NCBI RefSeq assembly: GCF_910588175.1 | Contig: NZ_CAJUQQ010000005.1 | From: an uncultured Oscillibacter sp. | GTDB lineage: Bacteria > Bacillota > Clostridia > Oscillospirales > Oscillospiraceae | Strand: one strand, 5' to 3' | DNA: 64,000 nt | Shown: one piece after another, positions 3,168-46,674 of the stretch | How the letters are laid out: every line of letters starts with the position of its first letter | Position numbering within the stretch: the stretch's first letter is position 1 | Position numbers and translations under genes: made by a program | Notes under the pieces: generated by a model | What the model was told of the DNA's origin: nothing | Database searches by the model: none | The model's input: the letters and a program-made list of their open reading frames with translations, nothing else

Positions 3168-3807
3168 TCAGTGCCGAACGATCATCACACTGTGGAACTC
3201 GTCCGCAACCGGAATGGGAATGATTCCGGCCGCGCCGCAAAATTCGTCCACCGCGCGTCCCGCTCCAACTCCAGAAAACCCATAATCATGCACAAAAATC
3301 ATCCCCATGCGTGCCATGCGGGGGTAGAAGTATTTCAAGCCCTCAAGAATCGGCGTATACAGGTCCGCGTCAATGGAGACAAACGCAAACCGGACATTCT
3401 CCCCCATCCCTTCTGTCGTATCGGGGAAATAGCCCTTCTTCACAACGCACTTCTCCGGAAACGGCATCCTGCTGAGTACGGTCTGCACGCTGGTATCCTT
3501 CACCAGCTCCTTGATCGCGGCCGCGTTTATTTTGGAAAGATCATATTGCCGGTCTGCCGCGATATCACGTCCGTCAAACCCTTCAAACGTGTCAAACAGG
3601 TACAGTGCGCTCTCTGGAAACGCCTCGTTGATCAGCCTCGTTGATCAGCCGCGCAAAATCCCCCCGGAAAACGCCCAGCTCCGCGTTCCGGTCTATACAG
3701 CCGACGATTTCCGCGCGGTCTCCAGTAAAGAGCGTCAAAACCCCCTCAAATCCTCCGCCAAGACCATATATAACCAGCTGTGTTTTTCTCATTGCTCTTA
3801 CCACCAT
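3168..3807 (-). pseudogene. TylF/MycF-type SAM-dependent O-methyltransferase, frameshifted by a 13-bp tandem duplication
   Basis: ORF fragments 3592-3807 and 3168-3503 join in frame with no stop if one copy of CCTCGTTGATCAG is removed. The restored sequence reads ...ELGVFRGDFARLINEAFPESALYLFDTFEGFDGRD...FVSIDADLY...MIFVHDYG...AVDEF, which are TylF-family motifs. Confidence 0.75.
3623..3648. repeat. perfect 13-bp tandem duplication CCTCGTTGATCAG x2 (not a multiple of 3)
   Basis: Read directly: 3623-3635 is identical to 3636-3648. It lies inside the methyltransferase reading frame. Confidence 0.95.
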
Positions 3808-18333: not shown

Positions 18334-18540
18334 CGCGCCCCGCGCGCATGGGAAACGGTCCGGAAGGGCCGTTTTCCGCCCCCTGGGCGGACAGCGGACC
18401 TTCCGCCTCCAGGCAAGAGACATCCTACAACGTTGACAGAAATCATATGTCTCAGGGCCTTGGATTTTGTCACATCCTCCATTGACAGCGGCCCCGTTCC
18501 GGGTGTACGCTTTTATGCAACAAAGGAATACGGCAAACGG

Positions 18541-18830
18541 CGTTGATGGAGAAAAGTACCGGCGGGCGTTCCGCTCCAGTGAGCGGGGGACAGTGCAAAC
18601 CCCGCGCAAAGAGCCTCCGGGAAGAACACTCCGTAGCTCCAAGCTGAACCTGGGCGGAACACTCTCCCTCCCCCGGCAGTAGGCGCGGCGAGTTGTGATC
18701 GTTACCTCACACGGGCTTGTTGGAGCCTTGAAGGTGACCGCCCCCGGTGAGACGGGGAGGTAAATCAGGTGGCACCGCGGATAGCAGCTATTCGTCCTGA
18801 ATGTTCAGGAGATAGCTGCGTTTTTATTTT
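18541..18830 (+). promoter_or_regulatory. T-box leader (probable Asn specifier AAC) with a terminator/antiterminator
   Basis: Stem I start TTGATGGAGAAAAGTA. AG-bulge/distal loop CCAGTGAGC...CAGTGCAAA. Specifier region GGGAAGAACAC. T-box sequence AATCAGGTGGCACCGCGG at 18763-18780. Terminator hairpin at 18784-18819 followed by TTTTTATTTT. Confidence 0.85.
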
Positions 18831-22867: not shown

Positions 22868-24016
22868 ATGTCCATGCCAACCATTCTGCCCTCGGGCCAG
22901 CTCCACCCGGACGCCCTCAAGGGTCCCTTTGTCAAACATATCAGCAGCAGCACCTCCGCTCCCGCAGGCGGACCCGGCGTGAAGGTATCCGGCGGCGCCA
23001 TGGCGGACCGCTGGAAAGCGGAGGAGAAACGCGTCAATGCATATTGGCGGGAGCACCGGGACGAGGCCATCGACCTGACGCCCCAGCTGAGCGGCAAGCG
23101 GGTGGATTCCTACGACGGCAAAACCGTTGTGGAAAACCAGGGCATGGGGCTTATTGTCGAGACCATTCAGCCCGGCGTCTTCACCGCCGAGGACGCGAAT
23201 AAATCCGCGGCCTCCGGCGGGGCTACCCATGGGTTCTTCTACCGCAAGACGGATTTCCTGTTCAGCGCCGCCCAGGAGTACACCGCCCTTGGCGAAAACG
23301 AGGTGTTCCGCCACCGCAATATCGACGATGTGAATTTTGTCCGGGACACGCTGGACTTTTTTACCAACGGAAATTACACCCAGGCGGACGTCAACCGCAT
23401 GCAGGATCAGATGACGGCGGTGGTTCGGGAGCTGGCCCAGCAGATGAAGGACGGCGGAGCGCCGGATTTGAGCAAGGTAACGGCCACCCTGACCGTGGGC
23501 GGCGGGGAGGTTTCCATTTCCCAGCTCTTGGAGATGCAGAAAACGGGGCGGGAGCTGTCGGAGTCCTTCAGCGGGATAACCTCCGGCTCCTTGACCGGCC
23601 ATAATATTGAGGGGTTCGCGAAAATGGGAATTGCAAAATCCCTGGGCAGCTATTATGGCCGCGATCAGGGAGCGGTTGGGCAGATGTTCTCCCAAGGCAT
23701 CGACCGGCTGTATGAAAAGGGCATGGCACAGCTTGAAAAGGCGGACGCCTGGGCGAAGAGCGTATCCTACGCCGCCGGAACCTCTGGCAATCGGGACGCG
23801 GTGAACACCGAACGGAACATCGCCGGTTTGTTTTCCAAGCTGAACACGGAAAGCAAAAGCGGCCTTATCCAGAGCTTTTCCTCCACGCTGGCCCAGGCAA
23901 GGGCGCTGGTTCAGCAGTATTGCAGTCAGTACAATCTGTCAACCTCCCATGTGGGCCTGGCCGGAGCCACGGCGGGGATTGAATCGTTCTTCCAGGCGTG
24001 GACGAATCAGCTGTAA
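22868..24016 (+). CDS. hypothetical protein (382 aa), probable flagellar-regulon member
   Basis: AAGGAGG RBS 7 nt before ATG 22868. No signal peptide or TM segment. Gly/Ser/Thr/Ala/Gln-rich. I recognised no family. Confidence 0.7.
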   Translation: MSMPTILPSGQLHPDALKGPFVKHISSSTSAPAGGPGVKVSGGAMADRWKAEEKRVNAYWREHRDEAIDLTPQLSGKRVDSYDGKTVVENQGMGLIVETIQPGVFTAEDANKSAASGGATHGFFYRKTDFLFSAAQEYTALGENEVFRHRNIDDVNFVRDTLDFFTNGNYTQADVNRMQDQMTAVVRELAQQMKDGGAPDLSKVTATLTVGGGEVSISQLLEMQKTGRELSESFSGITSGSLTGHNIEGFAKMGIAKSLGSYYGRDQGAVGQMFSQGIDRLYEKGMAQLEKADAWAKSVSYAAGTSGNRDAVNTERNIAGLFSKLNTESKSGLIQSFSSTLAQARALVQQYCSQYNLSTSHVGLAGATAGIESFFQAWTNQL

Positions 24017-24063: not shown

Positions 24064-24094
24064 GGGACCCGGAGCGGATATGCTCCGGGTCCCT
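24064..24094. repeat. left copy of a duplicated terminator hairpin (target-site duplication of MITE copy 1)
   Basis: GGGACCCGGAGCGGATATGCTCCGGGTCCCT is identical to 24259-24289. Confidence 0.9.
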
Positions 24095-24256
24095 CAGGCT
24101 GTCGAAAATGTCTTTTCGCCAGCCTGAGCAAGTTTTTTGGACCTTTAAAAAGTTCCAAAAAACTTCTGATTGAAAACGAGAGAAACCCCTGATGGGTTTC
24201 TCTCGTAGCTCTTTTCCTTTCCGTTCCCTTGCGGACAGCACTTTTTCGACAAGCTG
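24095..24256 (-). mobile_element. 162-bp MITE-like non-coding element, copy 1
   Basis: Its reverse complement is identical by eye to 33710-33871. Imperfect terminal inverted repeats CAGCTTGTCGAAAAAGTG / CAGGCTGTCGAAAATGTC. Three internal hairpins. No ORF. Confidence 0.85.
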
Positions 24257-24258
24257 CC

Positions 24259-24289
24259 GGGACCCGGAGCGGATATGCTCCGGGTCCCT
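24259..24289. repeat. right copy of the duplicated terminator hairpin (TSD of MITE copy 1)
   Basis: Identical 31-mer to 24064-24094. It is followed by the TTCG that complements the CGAA upstream of the left copy. Confidence 0.9.
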
Positions 24290-24295
24290 TTCGTT

Positions 24296-24317
24296 ATGCT
24301 ATTCCTATGCTATTCCT
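24296..24317. repeat. 11-bp tandem duplication ATGCTATTCCT x2
   Basis: Read directly. It overlaps the stop codon of the small ORF 24310-24435. Confidence 0.9.
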
Positions 24318-24435
24318 TTGCCTTCGGCTTATACTGTTCCTCTCCGCTTTCGACGTACTTGATTAAATTAATAATCTCCTCCGCCGTCCACCCAGCGCTC
24401 TGCAGCGCCTCGATCAATCGAAAATTCTCCTGCAT
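24310..24435 (-). CDS. possible small protein (41 aa) downstream of yaaT
   Basis: MQENFRLIEALQSAGWTAEEIINLIKYVESGEEQYKPKAKE. GAAGGAGG lies 15 nt before the ATG (9 nt before an alternative GTG at 24441). Locally lower GC. No family recognised. Confidence 0.25.
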   Translation of the reverse strand: MQENFRLIEALQSAGWTAEEIINLIKYVESGEEQYKPKAKE

Positions 24436-24513
24436 GTTCACCGTTCAGTACCTCCTTCTTCTCCGTCCACAGCCCTTGTTCCAGCCGCTTGGCAATTCGG
24501 TCCTATCAAGTCC

Positions 24514-25731
24514 TCACTTGGGCGCGTCTCCGCCCTTGCCGCCGCCCCGGCGGCCGCCCCGGTAAGGCGGGCGGCGGCGCTTGTTCTCCCCGGCGGGGCG
24601 GTCCTCCCGCTGGTCCCGCTGGCCCTCCGGGCGGCTTTGCTGTCTGGGGGGACGGGGAGGCGGCCCCCCCTGTTTCTTGGGGGCCTGCTGAACCGGCGGC
24701 CCCTCGGGACGGGGGCCCCTCCGGCTCCGGCCGCCCCGGTGGCGGTGGCGGGGCTTGCCGTCCCCCTCGGTGCCCATCTTCTCCCGGCGGGGGGCCTCCG
24801 CCAGGTGGTCGTCGGTGTAATAGGAGGTGGAGAATACCGGCTGAATCAGCTCCTCCTCCTCCCGCTCCTCCACAAAGCGGGCGGTCCGCTCGGGAATCTC
24901 AATGCCCTCCCGGCTGCCCTTGCCGTTGCGCAGGACCTTGATCTCACAGGCGCGATAGGTTTTCAGGCTCTCCGGCGCGCTGTCCAGGCTGACCTTCACC
25001 CGCTCCCGCAGCAGCTCCACGCCTTTCACGTTGCCCGGCCCGTCGGGGGTCTGGACGAAGGACTCCGGCTTGGGCATCCGCTTGGCGGCGTCCTCATAGG
25101 CGTTCTGCTCGTACTTGAGACAGCACATCAGCCGCCCGCAGGTGCCGGAGATCTTGGTGGGATTCAGGCTCAAGTTCTGGGTCTTGGCCATCTTGATGGA
25201 GACGGGCAGAAAGCCGTCCAGGAATTGGGCGCAGCAGAACGGCCGCCCGCAGATTCCCAGGCCCCCGATCATCTTCGCCTCGTCCCGGACGCCGATCTGC
25301 CGCAGCTCAATCCGCGCCCGGAAGACGGAGGCCAGGTCCCGGACCAGCTCCCGGAAGTCCACCCGCCCGTCGGCGGTGAAGTAGAACACGATCTTGTTGC
25401 TGTCAAAGCCCACGGAGACGCTGACCAGCTTCATCTCCAGCCCGTGGTCCGCGATCTTGCCCTCGCAGATGTCAAAGGCCTCCCGCTCCCGCTTCCGGTT
25501 GTACTCCACCACCCGGAAATCGTTCTCCGTGGCCCGGCGGACAATGGCGCTGAGGGGCTTGACGATCAGCTCGTCCGCCACCTCGTGGTTCCCCTGGGTG
25601 CAGGTGGCAAACTCCAAGCCCTGGGCGGTCTGCACGATGACGTTCTCCCCCATGCGGACCTGGATGCCCCTGGGGTCGAAGAAATAGGTCTTGCTGCCGC
25701 CCCGAAAGCGGACACTGATGACTTCAGTCAA
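24514..25731 (-). CDS. yaaT: PSP1-domain protein YaaT/RicT with an Arg/Gly/Pro-rich C-terminal tail
   Basis: VISVRFRGGSKTYFFDP...GGLGICGRPFCCAQFL...GTCGRLMCCLKYE (PSP1 C-terminal Cys motif). Coupled to holB as in Bacillus. Confidence 0.9.
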   Translation of the reverse strand: MTEVISVRFRGGSKTYFFDPRGIQVRMGENVIVQTAQGLEFATCTQGNHEVADELIVKPLSAIVRRATENDFRVVEYNRKREREAFDICEGKIADHGLEMKLVSVSVGFDSNKIVFYFTADGRVDFRELVRDLASVFRARIELRQIGVRDEAKMIGGLGICGRPFCCAQFLDGFLPVSIKMAKTQNLSLNPTKISGTCGRLMCCLKYEQNAYEDAAKRMPKPESFVQTPDGPGNVKGVELLRERVKVSLDSAPESLKTYRACEIKVLRNGKGSREGIEIPERTARFVEEREEEELIQPVFSTSYYTDDHLAEAPRREKMGTEGDGKPRHRHRGGRSRRGPRPEGPPVQQAPKKQGGPPPRPPRQQSRPEGQRDQREDRPAGENKRRRPPYRGGRRGGGKGGDAPK

Positions 25732-29487: not shown

Positions 29488-29626
29488 AGTCCTCCGCAGG
29501 CAGCTGCGGAGCCGGTCTCGCGCAATGAAGCTCTGCGAACCATGTCAGGCGGGGAACCGAGCAGCATTAAGCGGAATGTTTCATGTGCCGCGAGGCAACC
29601 GGCTCCGCAGCTGCGTGGGGAGGACT
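29488..29626 (+). ncRNA. ffs: signal recognition particle RNA (small, 4.5S-like, about 139 nt)
   Basis: Domain IV motif GTCAGGCGGGGAACCGAGCAGC...GTGCCGCGAGG parallels E. coli GUCAGGUCCGGAAGGAAGCAGC...GUGCCGGGAUG. The long terminal helix AGTCCTCCGCAGGCAGCTGCGGAGCCGGT pairs with ACCGGCTCCGCAGCTGCGTGGGGAGGACT. It has the classical position just upstream of dnaX. Confidence 0.85.
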
Positions 29627-31884: not shown

Positions 31885-33663
31885 ATGAAACGAATAAAAC
31901 GCCTTTGGGCGGCGGTCCTGGCCCTGGTTCTGCTGGCGGGCTGCGGACGGACGGAGCCCCTGCCCTACCCGGAGCCCGCCGCCTCGGAGCCGGGAAAGAC
32001 GGTTGCCTACGTCCCCCTGGACGACCGGCCGGACAACGTGGAGCGGGTGGTGTATCTGGCGGAATCCCTGGGCTATGCCCTGGCCATGCCGGAGAAGGTC
32101 CTGTACCGCACGGCCCTGGACGGCCAGCCGAAAAACTTTGACAGCCTCCAGCGGGGGGAGCCCTGGTCCCTGTTCACCTGGGTGCTGGAGCAGGAGGCGG
32201 CGGGGTGCGACCGCTACATCCTCTCCCTGGACCAGCTCCACTCCGGGGGGCTGGTGGCCTCCCGGTCTATGACCGGGTACGACATCGAGCTTCCCGGCGG
32301 CGGAACCGTCCAGATACACTCCATGCTGGAGCAGCTTTTGACGGCCCTCTCCGCCGATGAAAACAATGTGGTCTGGCTTTTGGACTCCGTCATGCGGCTG
32401 GCCCCCACCGTGGGCTACGAGGGGGGGACGCTGGAGGAATACAACGCCATCCGGGCCTTCGGGGCCCTGCCCCGGCGGACGCTGGAGGGAGACACGCTGC
32501 ATCTGGAGGCCATTGCCGAGAGTTACTGGTGGGGTCCTAATGGGGAAAACCTCCGTTCCCAGACCAGGGCGGAGGGCACCTATGAGGCCGCCCTCCGGCA
32601 CGTGCGTTCCCGGGACCGGAAAATGGTACTCTCTTATGTGGTGCAGGATACGCTGCGCAAACCCGGCTATGAGAACTTTCGCCTTTTAATCGGCATCGAC
32701 GACTCCTCCCTGGAGGACTGCATCCAGAAAAATGAGATCGCCTTCCTCCGCCGGGGCCTCCGGGCCGGGGAGGGGGAGGACGGGAGGCAGCTGGACTGGC
32801 TCCTCTCCGGGGTAGACGATCTGGCCTTCAAGGCCGTGGCCCGGATGTACCTGGACGAGACGGGCTGGCAGGGGACCAGCGTCATCGTCGATTACTTTGG
32901 CGATACCTACGACCAGCCCGCCTGTGAATACGACTTCCAGCCCCTATGGAAGATCGTGGAGGAACACAACCGGTTCTTCGATCTGCTCCCGTGCAACCAA
33001 GCCGCCGGAATGTATATTTTCATCCTGACCCAGCCCAAGGACGAAACGCAGAAGAGCGCATATATTGACCAGCTCCTCCGGGCGCTGGAGGGCAACCGGA
33101 AACAGCAGAGACCCACCATTTTGATCGACGCCAGCAACGGGACCTACGGCACGGCGGTCTACGACGCTCTGACCAAAAAGGCGGAGCTGGGCTGTCTCCT
33201 GGCCTACTCCGGCATGCTGGACATGGCCATCGTCACCGGCACGGCATTGAGCCACGGGGCCGCCCGGTACGCCGTCTTGAAAAACGGTGAGAACACCGAC
33301 GCTTGCGACCGGGCCTGGGCCCGGACCCTGGCGGACAGCGTCCTCAAGGACTTCTGCTACAAGGGCGTGGTGCGGAACGACCTGCTGACTTATATCCGAA
33401 ACGACCTGGGCGGGGACCCCAACAACTTCTGGTCCCCGGAGCTGGACCGGGAGGACCTGCTCCGCCGCCTGGAGGAAGGCATGGAGAAGGAGACCGCCCC
33501 CGTCATCCGCAATCTGGAACGGAGCTCTTTTCTCTCCTCCATCTCCCCTGACGGGGAAATTGATGAGCGGCATTGGGGCGGCATCGCCCTGGAGAACTAC
33601 CGCTTCCCCTGGGACCGGGCCTTTGAGATCGGCATGGACATCCGGCTGGGGGAGTTCCGGTGA
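31885..33663 (+). CDS. lipoprotein, DUF4127-like
   Basis: Signal peptide with lipobox LLAGC. The YVPLDDRPDN motif resembles the PLDERP signature I associate with DUF4127. The family call is tentative. Confidence 0.55.
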   Translation: MKRIKRLWAAVLALVLLAGCGRTEPLPYPEPAASEPGKTVAYVPLDDRPDNVERVVYLAESLGYALAMPEKVLYRTALDGQPKNFDSLQRGEPWSLFTWVLEQEAAGCDRYILSLDQLHSGGLVASRSMTGYDIELPGGGTVQIHSMLEQLLTALSADENNVVWLLDSVMRLAPTVGYEGGTLEEYNAIRAFGALPRRTLEGDTLHLEAIAESYWWGPNGENLRSQTRAEGTYEAALRHVRSRDRKMVLSYVVQDTLRKPGYENFRLLIGIDDSSLEDCIQKNEIAFLRRGLRAGEGEDGRQLDWLLSGVDDLAFKAVARMYLDETGWQGTSVIVDYFGDTYDQPACEYDFQPLWKIVEEHNRFFDLLPCNQAAGMYIFILTQPKDETQKSAYIDQLLRALEGNRKQQRPTILIDASNGTYGTAVYDALTKKAELGCLLAYSGMLDMAIVTGTALSHGAARYAVLKNGENTDACDRAWARTLADSVLKDFCYKGVVRNDLLTYIRNDLGGDPNNFWSPELDREDLLRRLEEGMEKETAPVIRNLERSSFLSSISPDGEIDERHWGGIALENYRFPWDRAFEIGMDIRLGEFR

Positions 33664-33682: not shown

Positions 33683-33709
33683 AGCCCGCCGTCTTTGGAC
33701 GGCGGGCTT
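33683..33709. repeat. left copy of a duplicated terminator hairpin (TSD of MITE copy 2)
   Basis: AGCCCGCCGTCTTTGGACGGCGGGCTT. The partner at 33872-33899 differs only in the loop (TTTGG versus TTTTAG). Confidence 0.85.
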
Positions 33710-33871
33710 CAGCTTGTCGAAAAAGTGCTGTCCGCAAGGGAACGGAAAGGAAAAGAGCTACGAGAGAAACCCATCAGGGGTTTCTCTCGTTTTCAATCAG
33801 AAGTTTTTTGGAACTTTTTAAAGGTCCAAAAAACTTGCTCAGGCTGGCGAAAAGACATTTTCGACAGCCTG
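33710..33871 (+). mobile_element. 162-bp MITE-like non-coding element, copy 2
   Basis: Same sequence as the reverse complement of 24095-24256. Internal hairpins at 33761-33789 (followed by TTTT), 33801-33836 and 33839-33873. Confidence 0.85.
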
Positions 33872-33899
33872 AGCCCGCCGTCTTTTAGACGGCGGGCTT
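33872..33899. repeat. right copy of the duplicated terminator hairpin (TSD of MITE copy 2)
   Basis: AGCCCGCCGTCTTTTAGACGGCGGGCTT followed by the original T-run. Confidence 0.85.
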
Positions 33900-33936: not shown

Positions 33937-34677
33937 TTACAGCTGCTTGACGGTATAGTACACCGCCAGGGCAAACACCACAACGCCCAGCACCCACATG
34001 GCGTAGTAGGCCATCGTGGCGCTGAACAGGGCCACCAGCACCGCCGCGGCGGACAAAACGGCGGCGGCGTAAATGGGCATCAGGTCCGCGTCCGCGGGGA
34101 GCAGCTTTCCCAGCTTCTTGTTCTTCGCCAGCCAGCAGATGCCGCCCAGCAGAGCCACGTAAACCACGGACAGCACCTTCACAGGGATGCCCATGGTCAG
34201 GCTGCCGAACAGGCGGCGGCACACCCAAAGCACAATCATGGTCCCGCACAGCGCCGTCAGCGCCACGGAGCACTCCCGGTCATAGAAGGCCCAGATCACG
34301 GTCAGCACCATCGCCACCGGCACCACCACGCTGAGCAGCATCACGGCGGGCTCCACGTACACCCGGGCCAGAATGCTGCCCACGGCGAAGAACGCGCCCA
34401 GAGATGTCAGCGCCCAGCCCAGAAGGCGCTTGCGCTCGTCCTTTTTCCACAGCACGCTGAGCACCGCGCCCAGAACCAGCACCGCCGCCCCCAGGCCCGC
34501 GAAAATCAGCAGGCGGTCATACCACACCAGGGCCTCGGTCACCACGTCGCCATGGATGTAGTATTTGCGGAGGACCAGCAGATAGAACTCCGCCAGGCAG
34601 GCCGCCAGAAAGAAAACCGTCGCGCCATACAGGGAATTATCCCGCTTCATAGACTTTCCATTCGGATTCTTTGCCAT
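33937..34677 (-). CDS. polytopic membrane protein of unknown function
   Basis: 246 aa with about 7 hydrophobic segments. No recognisable family. Confidence 0.6.
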   Translation of the reverse strand: MAKNPNGKSMKRDNSLYGATVFFLAACLAEFYLLVLRKYYIHGDVVTEALVWYDRLLIFAGLGAAVLVLGAVLSVLWKKDERKRLLGWALTSLGAFFAVGSILARVYVEPAVMLLSVVVPVAMVLTVIWAFYDRECSVALTALCGTMIVLWVCRRLFGSLTMGIPVKVLSVVYVALLGGICWLAKNKKLGKLLPADADLMPIYAAAVLSAAAVLVALFSATMAYYAMWVLGVVVFALAVYYTVKQL

Positions 34678-46468: not shown

Positions 46469-46556
46469 GGAGAGATGTCCGAGTGGTTGAAGGAACCGGT
46501 CTTGAAAACCGGCGGCGCGCAAGTGCCCGTGGGTTCGAATCCCACTCTCTCCGCCA
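46469..46556 (+). tRNA. tRNA-Ser (anticodon UGA), CCA encoded
   Basis: Acceptor GGAGAGA/TCTCTCC. Anticodon loop CTTGAAA. Long variable arm. T-loop GGTTCGAATCC. Confidence 0.9.
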
Positions 46557-46581
46557 ACTTTTCAAAAGTGAATCCGGATCT

Positions 46582-46674
46582 GCGGAAGTACCCAAGTGGC
46601 CGAAGGGGCTCCCCTGCTAAGGGAGTAGGCTGGATAAAACCGGCGCGAGGGTTCAAATCCCTCCTTCCGCGCCA
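46582..46674 (+). tRNA. tRNA-Ser (anticodon GCU), CCA encoded
   Basis: Acceptor GCGGAAG/CTTCCGC. Anticodon stem-loop CTCCC-CTGCTAA-GGGAG. Long variable arm. T-loop GGTTCAAATCC. Confidence 0.9.

What the first reader, a model, noticed from the sequence alone, without database searches (positions are those of the whole stretch)
24064..24289. A 162-bp MITE-like element sits inside a rho-independent terminator with the entire hairpin duplicated on both sides (31-bp target duplication)
The core 24095-24256 has imperfect terminal inverted repeats (CAGCTTGTCGAAAAAGTG / CAGGCTGTCGAAAATGTC) and no ORF. It also has three strong internal hairpins, one of them terminator-like. It is flanked by two identical copies of GGGACCCGGAGCGGATATGCTCCGGGTCCCT. 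The left copy retains the upstream CGAAA and the right copy retains the downstream TTTCG, and these two are complementary. The ancestral site was therefore one hairpin, CGAAAGGGACCCGGAGC-GGATAT-GCTCCGGGTCCCTTTCG, the terminator of gene 22868-24016. A target duplication of about 30 bp that coincides with the stem boundaries is far outside the 2-14 bp typical of IS/MITE families. It suggests structure-directed staggered cleavage at the base of a hairpin or cruciform. By carrying its own bidirectional terminator-like hairpins, the element would replace the function it disrupts.
Basis: partly seen in the sequence, partly recalled or inferred. Interest (0 to 1): 0.8.

Follow-up and report, generated by a model that had tools for sequence, protein, structure and literature searches.

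The report
Small transposon that duplicates terminator hairpins
A 162-base non-coding mobile element, common in gut Oscillospiraceae bacteria, has jumped into the hairpin that ends a gene and copied the whole hairpin to both of its sides; this shows its unidentified transposase picks targets by DNA shape, a behaviour reported before only for a few insertion sequences.

Summary

- **Anatomy.** A 162-bp element (24095-24256) lies between two exact 31-nt copies of a GC-rich hairpin. There are 2 extra bases (CC) at the right junction.
- **Second copy.** A 100% identical copy lies at 33710-33871 on the minus strand. It sits between two copies of a different hairpin.
- **Empty site.** A metagenome contig of the same species (L136) has identical flanks and one hairpin.
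- **Family.** A scan of one genome per species returned 119 loci, essentially all Oscillospiraceae. In 45 of 87 scorable copies the element abuts a locus-specific duplicated hairpin of 20-43 nt (median 28).
- **Short duplications.** Among 22 copies without hairpin duplication, 9 have exact duplications of 2 bp or more, mostly 2-4 bp.

It is therefore a miniature inverted-repeat element (MITE). It is most likely moved in trans by a DDE-type transposase with a short stagger. When that enzyme acts at the base of an extruded palindrome, it duplicates the whole palindrome.

No autonomous partner or transposase was found. The behaviour has a precedent in IS1630 of Mycoplasma.

Verdict: a real, recently active, apparently undescribed family of a known kind.

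The parts
24064..24094 (+). Left copy of the duplicated target hairpin (31 nt: 12-bp GC-rich stem, loop GGATAT, plus one T). It is the terminator hairpin of gene 22868-24016 and keeps the upstream CGAAA.
   Evidence: Exact repeat. It is present once in the empty site L136.
24095..24256 (+). MITE copy 1, 162 bp, non-coding. Its terminal inverted repeats are CAGGCTGTCGAAAATGTC and the reverse complement of CAGCTTGTCGAAAAAGTG.
   Evidence: nhmmer E = 2.8e-29 against the family profile. It is absent from the same-species contig L136.
24095..24126 (+). Left-end hairpin. It consists of the left terminal repeat followed, after 2-4 bases, by an inverted copy of the same motif. This 32-nt unit also occurs alone elsewhere (L099, L030).
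   Evidence: Fold. It is near-invariant in the family alignment, although the search pattern selected for it. A solo 32-mer in L099 is flanked by a 3-bp ACA duplication.
24130..24165 (+). Internal AT-rich palindrome (hairpin 2).
   Evidence: (D17). The structure is kept in 52 of 52 family members with 49 distinct sequences.
24176..24206 (+). Internal GC-rich hairpin 3, scored terminator-like on the element's forward strand.
   Evidence: Compensatory changes occur across the family (GC/CG/AU at paired columns).
24238..24256 (+). Right terminal inverted repeat (GCACTTTTTCGACAAGCTG).
   Evidence: The family consensus is TTT(T/A)TCGACAGTCT(C/G).
24257..24258 (+). Two extra bases (CC) at the right junction. 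They are not in the target and are not shared with copy 2. Their origin is unexplained.
   Evidence: Identity between the two copies ends at 24256. The empty site lacks them.
24259..24289 (+). Right copy of the duplicated target hairpin. It keeps the downstream TTTCG T-tract and is scored as a terminator.
33683..33709 (+). Copy 2: flanking hairpin copy next to the DUF4127 gene (AGCCCGCCGTC-TTTG-GACGGCGGGCTT).
   Evidence: It is a single hairpin in the orthologous locus L129.
33710..33871 (-). MITE copy 2, 100% identical to copy 1, in the opposite orientation, between convergent genes 31885-33663 (+) and 33937-34677 (-).
   Evidence: (I1).
33872..33899 (+). Copy 2: second flanking hairpin copy (AGCCCGCCGTC-TTTTA-GACGGCGGGCTT). 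It has the same stem, and the loop differs by one substitution and one base.
   Evidence: The same loops are present in sister assembly L122.

Best explanation

**Shown.**
- It inserted recently into the terminator hairpin between two convergent genes.
- The insertion duplicated the complete hairpin, so that one copy lies on each side of the element.

**Inferred mechanism.**
- The element is moved in trans by a transposase of the DDE type that normally makes a stagger of about 2-4 bp.
- This enzyme prefers palindromes that have extruded as a cruciform, or are otherwise folded.
- It joins the two 3' ends of the element to the 5' foot of each of the two hairpin arms. These two points lie close together in space whatever the stem length.
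- After unfolding and gap repair, the whole palindrome (20-43 bp) is present on both sides.

**Inferred consequence.** Each flanking gene keeps a hairpin, and the outer copy keeps its T-tract, so the insertion should be nearly harmless. That would explain how the family reaches many copies in intergenic terminators and REP-like palindromes.
For: **Window anatomy**
- Copy 1 has an exact 31-nt flanking repeat.
- Copy 2 is a 100% identical element between copies of a different hairpin.

**Empty sites**
- The same-species empty site L136 has identical flanks and one hairpin. Filled site = empty site + 195 bp.
- A related species has a single hairpin with the same stem at the copy-2 site.

**Family**
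- The scan returned 119 loci from Oscillospiraceae-type genomes.
- In 45 of 87 scorable copies the left flank is repeated directly after the right end. Scores were 30 or more, against 26 for the best non-cognate control.
- The duplications are 20-43 nt (median 28). All fold as hairpins, with dG from -11 to -36 kcal/mol, and 22 pairs are identical.
- More examples are L088 and L141.

**Short duplications elsewhere**
- Among 22 full-length copies without hairpin duplication, 9 have exact junction repeats of 2 nt or more, where about 1.4 are expected by chance. They are AT, GT, TT, AA, ACT, TAT, AAC, AGCA and one of 10 bp.
- The solo 32-mer in L099 has ACA.
- L101 sits in the loop of a long palindrome with only a 2-bp duplication.

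**Targets and precedent**
- The targets share no primary sequence.
- The published cruciform model predicts whole-stem-loop duplication when the ends join at the 5' feet (PMC5678879, Fig. 13).
Against: - **No partner found.** No transposase or longer element with the same ends was found in the window, in 119 genome loci, in viral contigs or in metagenome hits. The enzyme class is therefore inferred, not shown.
- **No direct evidence of cruciforms.** Extrusion in vivo is not demonstrated. The region between convergent genes is expected to be positively supercoiled, which disfavours extrusion.
- **The CC bases.** The 2-nt CC at the right junction of copy 1 is not predicted by simple gap repair.
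- **Exceptions in the family.** About half of the scorable copies lack a clean hairpin duplication. A few have different hairpins on the two sides: L053, L058, L070 and L142. These need secondary events such as decay or recombination between copies.
- **Loop differences.** The two hairpin copies of window copy 2 differ in the loop although the elements are identical.
Confidence: 0.72

Rival explanations
1. The element is moved as single-stranded DNA by a HUH/Y1 enzyme (an IS200/IS605-type TnpA or a REP-associated RAYT). That enzyme would recognise hairpins folded on the lagging-strand template, and the second hairpin copy would arise during replication or repair.
For: The targets are hairpins, and some are REP-like palindromes followed by CTAC, the complement of GTAG. 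The element is itself rich in conserved hairpins, including a subterminal one.
Against: - IS200/IS605 elements and REPINs make no target duplication, have no terminal inverted repeats, and insert next to a fixed tetra- or pentanucleotide (established knowledge of the family).
- This element has terminal inverted repeats, short 2-4 bp duplications at non-hairpin sites and no shared target sequence.
- No TnpA or RAYT gene was seen next to any copy.
Confidence: 0.1
2. The flanking hairpins belong to the element, or are the attL/attR core of a site-specific recombinase. On this reading the repeat is not a target duplication.
For: A 31-bp direct repeat is a typical size for an att core. A single copy taken alone cannot distinguish the two readings.
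Against: Every copy has a different flanking hairpin. Empty sites contain exactly one copy of the local hairpin. No integrase gene is nearby.
Confidence: 0.01
3. The element inserted beside the hairpin with an ordinary short duplication. The hairpin was copied later by replication slippage, template switching at the palindrome, or selection for a restored terminator.
For: Palindromes are hot spots for template switching. Loop flips and compensatory changes between the two hairpin copies show that such processes do act on these hairpins (L004, L034, L035, L051, L096).
Against: - The polymorphic, hence recent, insertion in the window already has a perfect 31-nt duplication abutting both ends, with no intermediate state.
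- Twenty-two pairs are identical, and all duplications abut the element ends.
- A two-step route would have to recur in exactly the same form at dozens of loci.
Confidence: 0.04
4. Integration is carried out by a Cas1-like integrase, as in casposons or CRISPR spacer acquisition. Such enzymes attack both borders of a palindromic repeat and duplicate it.
For: The outcome looks like repeat duplication during spacer acquisition: a roughly 30-bp palindromic unit duplicated around an insert (recalled knowledge; compare PMC5137440, listed).
Against: Those duplications have a fixed length and a defined target (14-15 bp for casposons, one repeat sequence for CRISPR). Here the length varies from 2 to 43 bp and the targets are unrelated. 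No cas1 gene is in the window or the loci.
Confidence: 0.02

Closest known systems
IS1630 of Mycoplasma fermentans (IS30 family)
   Same: [quoted passage not shown] The duplications are 19-26 bp, or 16-26 bp in strain M64. The IS30 family otherwise makes duplications of 2-3 bp (recalled), which resembles the 2-4 bp seen here at non-hairpin sites.
   Different: IS1630 is an autonomous element of about 1.2-1.4 kb with 27-bp terminal repeats in an AT-rich Mollicute. The present element is a 162-bp non-coding element in high-GC Clostridia, its duplications reach 43 bp, and its transposase is unknown. Family membership could not be tested.
IS1272 / TnSha1 (IS1182 family) of staphylococci
   Same: It chooses hairpins, often confirmed transcription terminators, with no primary sequence specificity. 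A cruciform target model has been proposed for it. Some IS1272 copies carry an extra copy of the left end, which is loosely reminiscent of the doubled motif at the left end here.
   Different: IS1272 deletes part or all of the stem-loop and makes no duplication. The present element does the opposite, which corresponds to pathway b rather than pathway a of the published model.
Classical bacterial MITEs (Correia/NEMIS, RUP, ERIC, Chunjie, MITEAba12)
   Same: Small size, terminal inverted repeats, no coding capacity, many intergenic copies, nested insertions and size variants.
   Different: Those families make short duplications of fixed length, such as TA. The 2024 review of prokaryotic MITEs that was searched here (by term) yielded no mention of a family that duplicates hairpins.
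Insertion sequences that target REP palindromes (IS1397, ISKpn1, some IS110/IS1111 members) and group IIC introns that insert after terminators
   Same: They prefer extragenic palindromes or terminator stem-loops as safe sites (PMC1525189 and PMC1702495, listed; details recalled).
   Different: Those elements insert inside or just after the palindrome, with no duplication or one of 3-4 bp. They use sequence-specific or RNA-guided recognition. None duplicates the whole palindrome.

Membership tests
MITE (non-autonomous DNA transposon) | Small size (tens to a few hundred bp) and no coding capacity | tested here: met
   The element is 162 bp. No ORF passing a codon-position G+C filter falls in the core. 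Family members are mostly 158-165 bp.
MITE (non-autonomous DNA transposon) | Terminal inverted repeats | tested here: met
   15 of 18 positions match in the window. The family consensus is (C/G)AGNNTGTCGA(A/T)AAAG at both ends.
MITE (non-autonomous DNA transposon) | Many dispersed copies with flanking target duplications, and presence/absence polymorphism | tested here: met
   Two copies in the window and 119 or more loci in other genomes. Duplications are documented.
MITE (non-autonomous DNA transposon) | An autonomous insertion sequence with matching ends that supplies the transposase | tested here: inconclusive
   None was found in the window, in 119 genome loci, in 3 viral loci or in 5 metagenome loci. 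Complete genomes of the hosts could not be searched.
IS30 family, IS1630-like | Duplication of palindromic targets of variable length and sequence | tested here: met
   45 locus-specific hairpin duplications of 20-43 nt, compared with 19-26 bp for IS1630.
IS30 family, IS1630-like | An IS30-type DDE transposase and IS30-like terminal repeats | not testable with these tools
   No transposase gene is linked to the element, and no library of IS ends is available.
IS1182 family, IS1272-like | Hairpin or terminator targeting without sequence specificity | tested here: met
   compared.
IS1182 family, IS1272-like | Replacement or partial deletion of the stem-loop and no target duplication | tested here: not met
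   The stem-loop is kept and duplicated.
IS200/IS605 derivatives (PATEs) and REPIN/RAYT elements | No terminal inverted repeats, no target duplication, insertion next to a fixed short sequence, and an associated Y1 transposase | tested here: not met
   Terminal repeats and duplications are present. The targets are unrelated in sequence. No such gene is nearby.
Group IIC intron or another described structured RNA | A match to a curated RNA family | tested here: not met
   No Rfam match reaches a family threshold on the element or on its long variant.

The most novel reading that the evidence does not exclude
The family is mobilised by a transposase that specifically recognises four-way (cruciform) DNA junctions in living cells and belongs to no group known to do so. 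The hundreds of natural insertions would then be a record of which palindromes extrude in vivo. The conserved internal hairpins would be functional parts of the transposition complex or of an RNA made from the element.
Probability: 0.15. Interest if true: 0.8.

Novelty: new member of a known kind. Interest (0 to 1): 0.6.

Why it matters
- **Evidence for shape-based targeting.** This is an unusually clean natural data set showing that a transposon can choose targets by DNA shape. There are dozens of unrelated hairpins, each duplicated exactly to its own length, alongside ordinary 2-4 bp duplications made by the same element elsewhere. There is also a same-species empty site.
- **Biology.** The data suggest how a mobile element can spread through terminators and REP-like palindromes of abundant human and animal gut bacteria without destroying them. 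They also bear on the old question of whether short palindromes fold in vivo.
- **Annotation.** Doubled terminators around a 160-bp insert are a signature of this family. The element breaks short-read assemblies of Oscillospiraceae, since several copies lie at contig ends.
- **Possible use.** The responsible enzyme, once found, could serve as a structure-directed integration tool.

Tried and rejected
**Searches for an autonomous partner (nothing found)**
- I looked for pairs of end motifs 400-4000 nt apart in all loci. This found only a MITE with a nested insert of about 260 nt (L061) and two adjacent copies (L088).
- Hairpin direct repeats 260-7000 nt apart turned out to be REP copies around housekeeping genes.
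- All-against-all BLAST of the loci for IS-like repeats found only orthologous genes.
- ORFs next to truncated left ends look like ordinary genes by their sequence (an ABC-type permease, a glycoside hydrolase, a peptidase, an RNase J-like protein, an ornithine carbamoyltransferase-like protein), not transposases.
- The gene map of the window shows no transposase.
- The first 50 kb of the Vescimonas fastidiosa replicon pMM35_02 has none.
- Plasmid pSE-12228-03, fetched to obtain an IS1272 protein as a seed, has none.
- A short-query BLAST of the left end against plasmids found only Vescimonas copies and chance hits.

**Collection scans of limited yield**
- The window-specific 20-mer gave 0 hits in viral contigs.
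- The single metagenome scan returned only 5 loci.

**Other negative results**
- Rfam gave no family for the element.
- The first literature search was too loose and returned nothing useful.
- The IS1630 paper itself (PMC94219) is not held. IS1630 is therefore cited through two papers that describe it.

**Ideas rejected**
- Hairpins as part of the element or as an att site: rejected because of flank diversity and the empty sites.
- The second hairpin copy as an inverted copy: most loops are in direct orientation.
- The element supplying a replacement terminator: both hairpin copies survive.

Full report
**1. What is in the window**

The sequence reads as follows:
- The gene ends at 24016.
- ...GGCGGCGAAACGAAA follows, then the hairpin copy GGGACCCGGAGC-GGATAT-GCTCCGGGTCCC-T (24064-24094).
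- Next comes a 162-bp core, from CAGGCTGTCGAAAATGTC to GCACTTTTTCGACAAGCTG (24095-24256).
- Two bases, CC (24257-24258), follow the core.
- Then the same 31-mer again (24259-24289), followed by TTCGTTATG.

The 31-mer occurs exactly twice in 64 kb, with none expected by chance. The core folds into three strong hairpins (z = -7.8). It matches no Rfam family.

A second copy of the core, 100% identical over 164 nt, lies at 33710-33873 on the other strand.

Read along the element, copy 2 is flanked by AAGCCCGCCGTC-TAAAA-GACGGCGGGCT on one side and AAGCCCGCCGTC-CAAA-GACGGCGGGCT on the other. An A-tract lies outside one copy and a T-tract outside the other. This is a different hairpin, duplicated in the same way.

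Both copies lie between convergent genes:
- Copy 1 lies between 22868-24016 (+) and 24310-24441 / 24514-25731 (-).
- Copy 2 lies between 31885-33663 (+) and 33937-34677 (-).

**2. Empty sites**

I looked up contigs that encode exactly the PSP1-domain protein of 24514-25731. This returned two contigs with the filled site (L134, L135) and one, L136 (ENA ERZ14499306), whose intergenic spacer is 195 bp shorter.

L136 reads ...GGCGGCGAAACGAAAGGGACCCGGAGCGGATATGCTCCGGGTCCCTTTCGTTATGCTATTCC.... This is one hairpin, with flanks identical to the window base for base. The insertion is polymorphic within one species, so it is recent.

Filled minus empty = 162 (element) + 2 (CC) + 31 (second hairpin copy).

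For copy 2, sister assembly L122 (99.87% identical over 7.8 kb) is also filled and has the same two loops. A related species, whose DUF4127 protein is 83% identical, has a 95-nt spacer. That spacer holds a single hairpin, AAAAAGCCCGCCGTC-CACA-GACGGCGGGCTTT.

**3. The family**

A diverged relative in Vescimonas fastidiosa replicons showed which part of the left end is conserved. I scanned one genome per species with TGTCGAAAAWGTCTTTTCGCC. Essentially all hits are Oscillospiraceae-type isolates and MAGs: Dysosmobacter, Oscillibacter, Neopoerus, Faecousia, 'Avoscillospira' and others.

Results for the 87 copies with enough flanking sequence:
- In 45 copies, the last 20-43 nt before the left end recur immediately after the right end. 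Scores were 30 or more, and the best of the non-cognate controls was 26.
- Every duplicated segment is a different GC-rich hairpin, with dG from -11 to -36 kcal/mol. The median length is 28 nt.
- 22 pairs are identical, 19 differ (mostly in the loop), and 4 have loops that are exact reverse complements of each other.
- Most duplicated units span the palindrome to within a base or two (dot-bracket ends). Where A- and T-tracts extend the palindrome, as at window copy 1, the borders lie near the edge of the GC-rich stem.
- After the outer copy, 31 of 45 have four or more T in the next 8 nt, as terminators do. Some targets in 'Avoscillospira' are REP-like palindromes followed by CTAC.

Variants also occur:
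- Tandem element-hairpin-element arrays (L004, L045).
- An internally deleted 73-nt element that still has a 26-nt hairpin duplication (L105).
- A 32-nt solo left-end unit (L099, L030).
- Nested small insertions.

The metagenome scan with the window's own subtype added L141, a new site with a perfect 19-nt hairpin duplication.

**4. Copies without hairpin duplication**

Twenty-two full-length copies lack a hairpin duplication. Nine of them have exact junction repeats of 2 nt or more: AGCA, AAC, ACT, TAT, AT, GT, TT, AA and one of 10 bp. Three more have near-matches. About 1.4 would be expected by chance.

Other informative cases:
- The solo 32-mer in L099 is flanked by ACA.
- L101 sits in the loop of a long palindrome whose uninterrupted form is seen in L068, and it has only a 2-bp duplication.
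- L046 and L048 sit at one foot of a hairpin, with 3-bp and 2-bp duplications.

The same element therefore makes short, ordinary duplications in ordinary DNA and palindrome-length duplications at palindromes.

**5. How it most likely works**

*Shown:*
- It is a mobile, non-coding element with terminal inverted repeats.
- It inserts into unrelated palindromes.
- It leaves the complete palindrome on both sides.
- The duplication is present in a recent, polymorphic insertion.

*Inferred:* the enzyme is a DDE-type transposase supplied in trans, with a natural stagger of about 2-4 bp.

A fixed enzyme cannot span 20 to 43 bp of B-form DNA. So the two attacked phosphates must be brought together by folding of the target. 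The base of an extruded cruciform does exactly this.

Joining the element's 3' ends at the 5' foot of each hairpin arm, followed by gap filling, copies the whole palindrome. Joining at the 3' feet would delete it. This is the model drawn for IS1272 in PMC5678879, Fig. 13, pathways b and a.

The present element behaves as pathway b. IS1272 behaves as pathway a, with no duplication and the stem-loop lost.

Because the hairpin survives on both sides, and the outer copy keeps its T-tract, both convergent genes keep a terminator. The inner copies are followed by only one T. Some read-through into the element is therefore plausible, but this is inferred and was not measured.

**6. Internal anatomy**

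- The left end is a hairpin made of the terminal repeat and an inverted copy of it.
- Next come an AT-rich palindrome of 13 or more pairs, a conserved TGATTGAA-like spacer, a GC-rich hairpin, a pyrimidine-rich stretch and the right terminal repeat.
- Hairpins 2 and 3 are kept in all 52 aligned members, although 49 and 42 distinct sequences occur. Compensatory changes are present.
- The role of these hairpins is unknown. Protein binding, DNA folding during transposition and an RNA function are all possible.

**7. What was not found**

No transposase or longer relative with these ends was found anywhere I could look. The enzyme class therefore rests on the duplications and the terminal repeats. 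This is the main weakness of the mechanistic claim.

**8. Comparison with what is known**

[quoted passage not shown] Its duplications are 19-26 bp (PMC2853133; reference title and M64 data in PMC3317919).
- **IS1272 / TnSha1.** This element shares hairpin and terminator targeting but deletes the stem-loop.
- **MITE review.** A term search of the 2024 review of prokaryotic MITEs yielded no mention of a hairpin-duplicating family. My other searches found none either.
- **IS1182 family.** From memory, unverified here, ISfinder lists duplications of 0-60 bp for this family. Two papers cite a review as saying that some of its members target palindromes.

I therefore file the element as a MITE, with all testable criteria met and the partner not found. 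It works like IS1630, but membership of the IS30 family or any other transposase family is untested.

**9. Unexplained points**

- The CC at the right junction of copy 1.
- The loop difference between the two hairpin copies of copy 2, although the two elements are identical. Copy 2 may be the older site.
- The four exact loop flips and one compensatory G-C to A-T change between paired hairpins. These fit template switching or stem-mediated inversion at palindromes, but whether they arise at insertion or later is open.
- A few copies with different hairpins on the two sides (L053, L058, L070, L142).

**10. Verdict**

The element is real, recently active and widespread in gut Oscillospiraceae, and as far as I could find it has not been described. 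Its defining behaviour has a published precedent, so it is a new member of a known kind rather than a new kind.

Noticed in passing
window 24257-24258: Two bases (CC) sit between the right end of the element and the right hairpin copy. They are absent from the empty site and are not shared with copy 2. They may be donor-flank carry-over or imprecise repair.
   Followed up: partly
L004, L034, L035, L051 (flanking hairpins); L096: In four loci the loop of one hairpin copy is the exact reverse complement of the loop of the other (for example TCCAT and ATGGA). In L096 the two copies differ by a compensatory G-C to A-T pair. This suggests inversion or template switching at the palindromes.
   Followed up: partly
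L010, L011, L025, L111 (same orientation); L029, L036 (inverted): A mini-insert of about 43 nt (GGCCCAGGCCAGCTTCTCTTGCCCTTCGGGCAATTCACCTTCA) is nested inside hairpin 3 of some family members, in either orientation. This looks like a second, even smaller mobile unit.
   Followed up: no
L099 1288-1319; L030: The 32-nt left-end hairpin (terminal repeat plus its inverted copy) occurs alone as a 'micro-element'. In L099 it is flanked by a 3-bp ACA duplication.
   Followed up: partly
L061 2601-3038: A family member carries a nested insert of about 260 nt with its own inverted ends (GGTTGACAAGGGCA ... TGCCCTTGTCAATC). This is probably another MITE family.
   Followed up: no
L138, L139 (IMG/VR contigs); L088 5736-5950: Longer variants (about 215 nt in L088 and 435 nt in L138/L139) have the same ends, but the AT-rich palindrome is replaced by a GC-rich structured module (GGAGYAGGAATACACCGT...GTTTCCCC). 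In L138 and L139 the variant lies between a terminase-like gene and a possible replication gene (assigned by eye) of a phage- or plasmid-like contig. L137 and L088 carry different variants at the same site.
   Followed up: partly
L124, L126, L128, about 3296-3312 (L124 coordinates): In a sister species, the hairpin orthologous to the copy-2 target is cut after its 5' arm (AAAAGCCCGCCGT|TTGTTAGG) and is followed by about 1 kb of unrelated DNA. The 3' arm is nowhere in the locus. This is a different rearrangement at the same hairpin.
   Followed up: partly
L046, L055, L063, L064, L119 ('Avoscillospira' and relatives): Many target hairpins in these genomes are REP-like palindromes followed by CCTAC (the complement of GTAG) and recur within loci. 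The element therefore uses REP-type repeats as well as terminators.
   Followed up: no
L142; L053, L058, L070: Some copies have different hairpins on the two sides. In L142 the two hairpins share only the outer 7-bp stem (AGGCGGC/GCCGCCT). Possible causes are recombination between copies or insertion between adjacent terminators.
   Followed up: no
window 18534-18802; 29509-29608; 46469-46671: A T-box leader lies upstream of the asparagine synthetase-like gene. A small SRP RNA lies upstream of dnaX, which explains inverted repeat I3. Two tRNA genes are also present.
   Followed up: no
L017, L026, L022, L079 and other loci: Several family copies lie at or within a few bases of contig ends. This suggests the 160-bp repeat breaks short-read assemblies of these genomes.
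   Followed up: no
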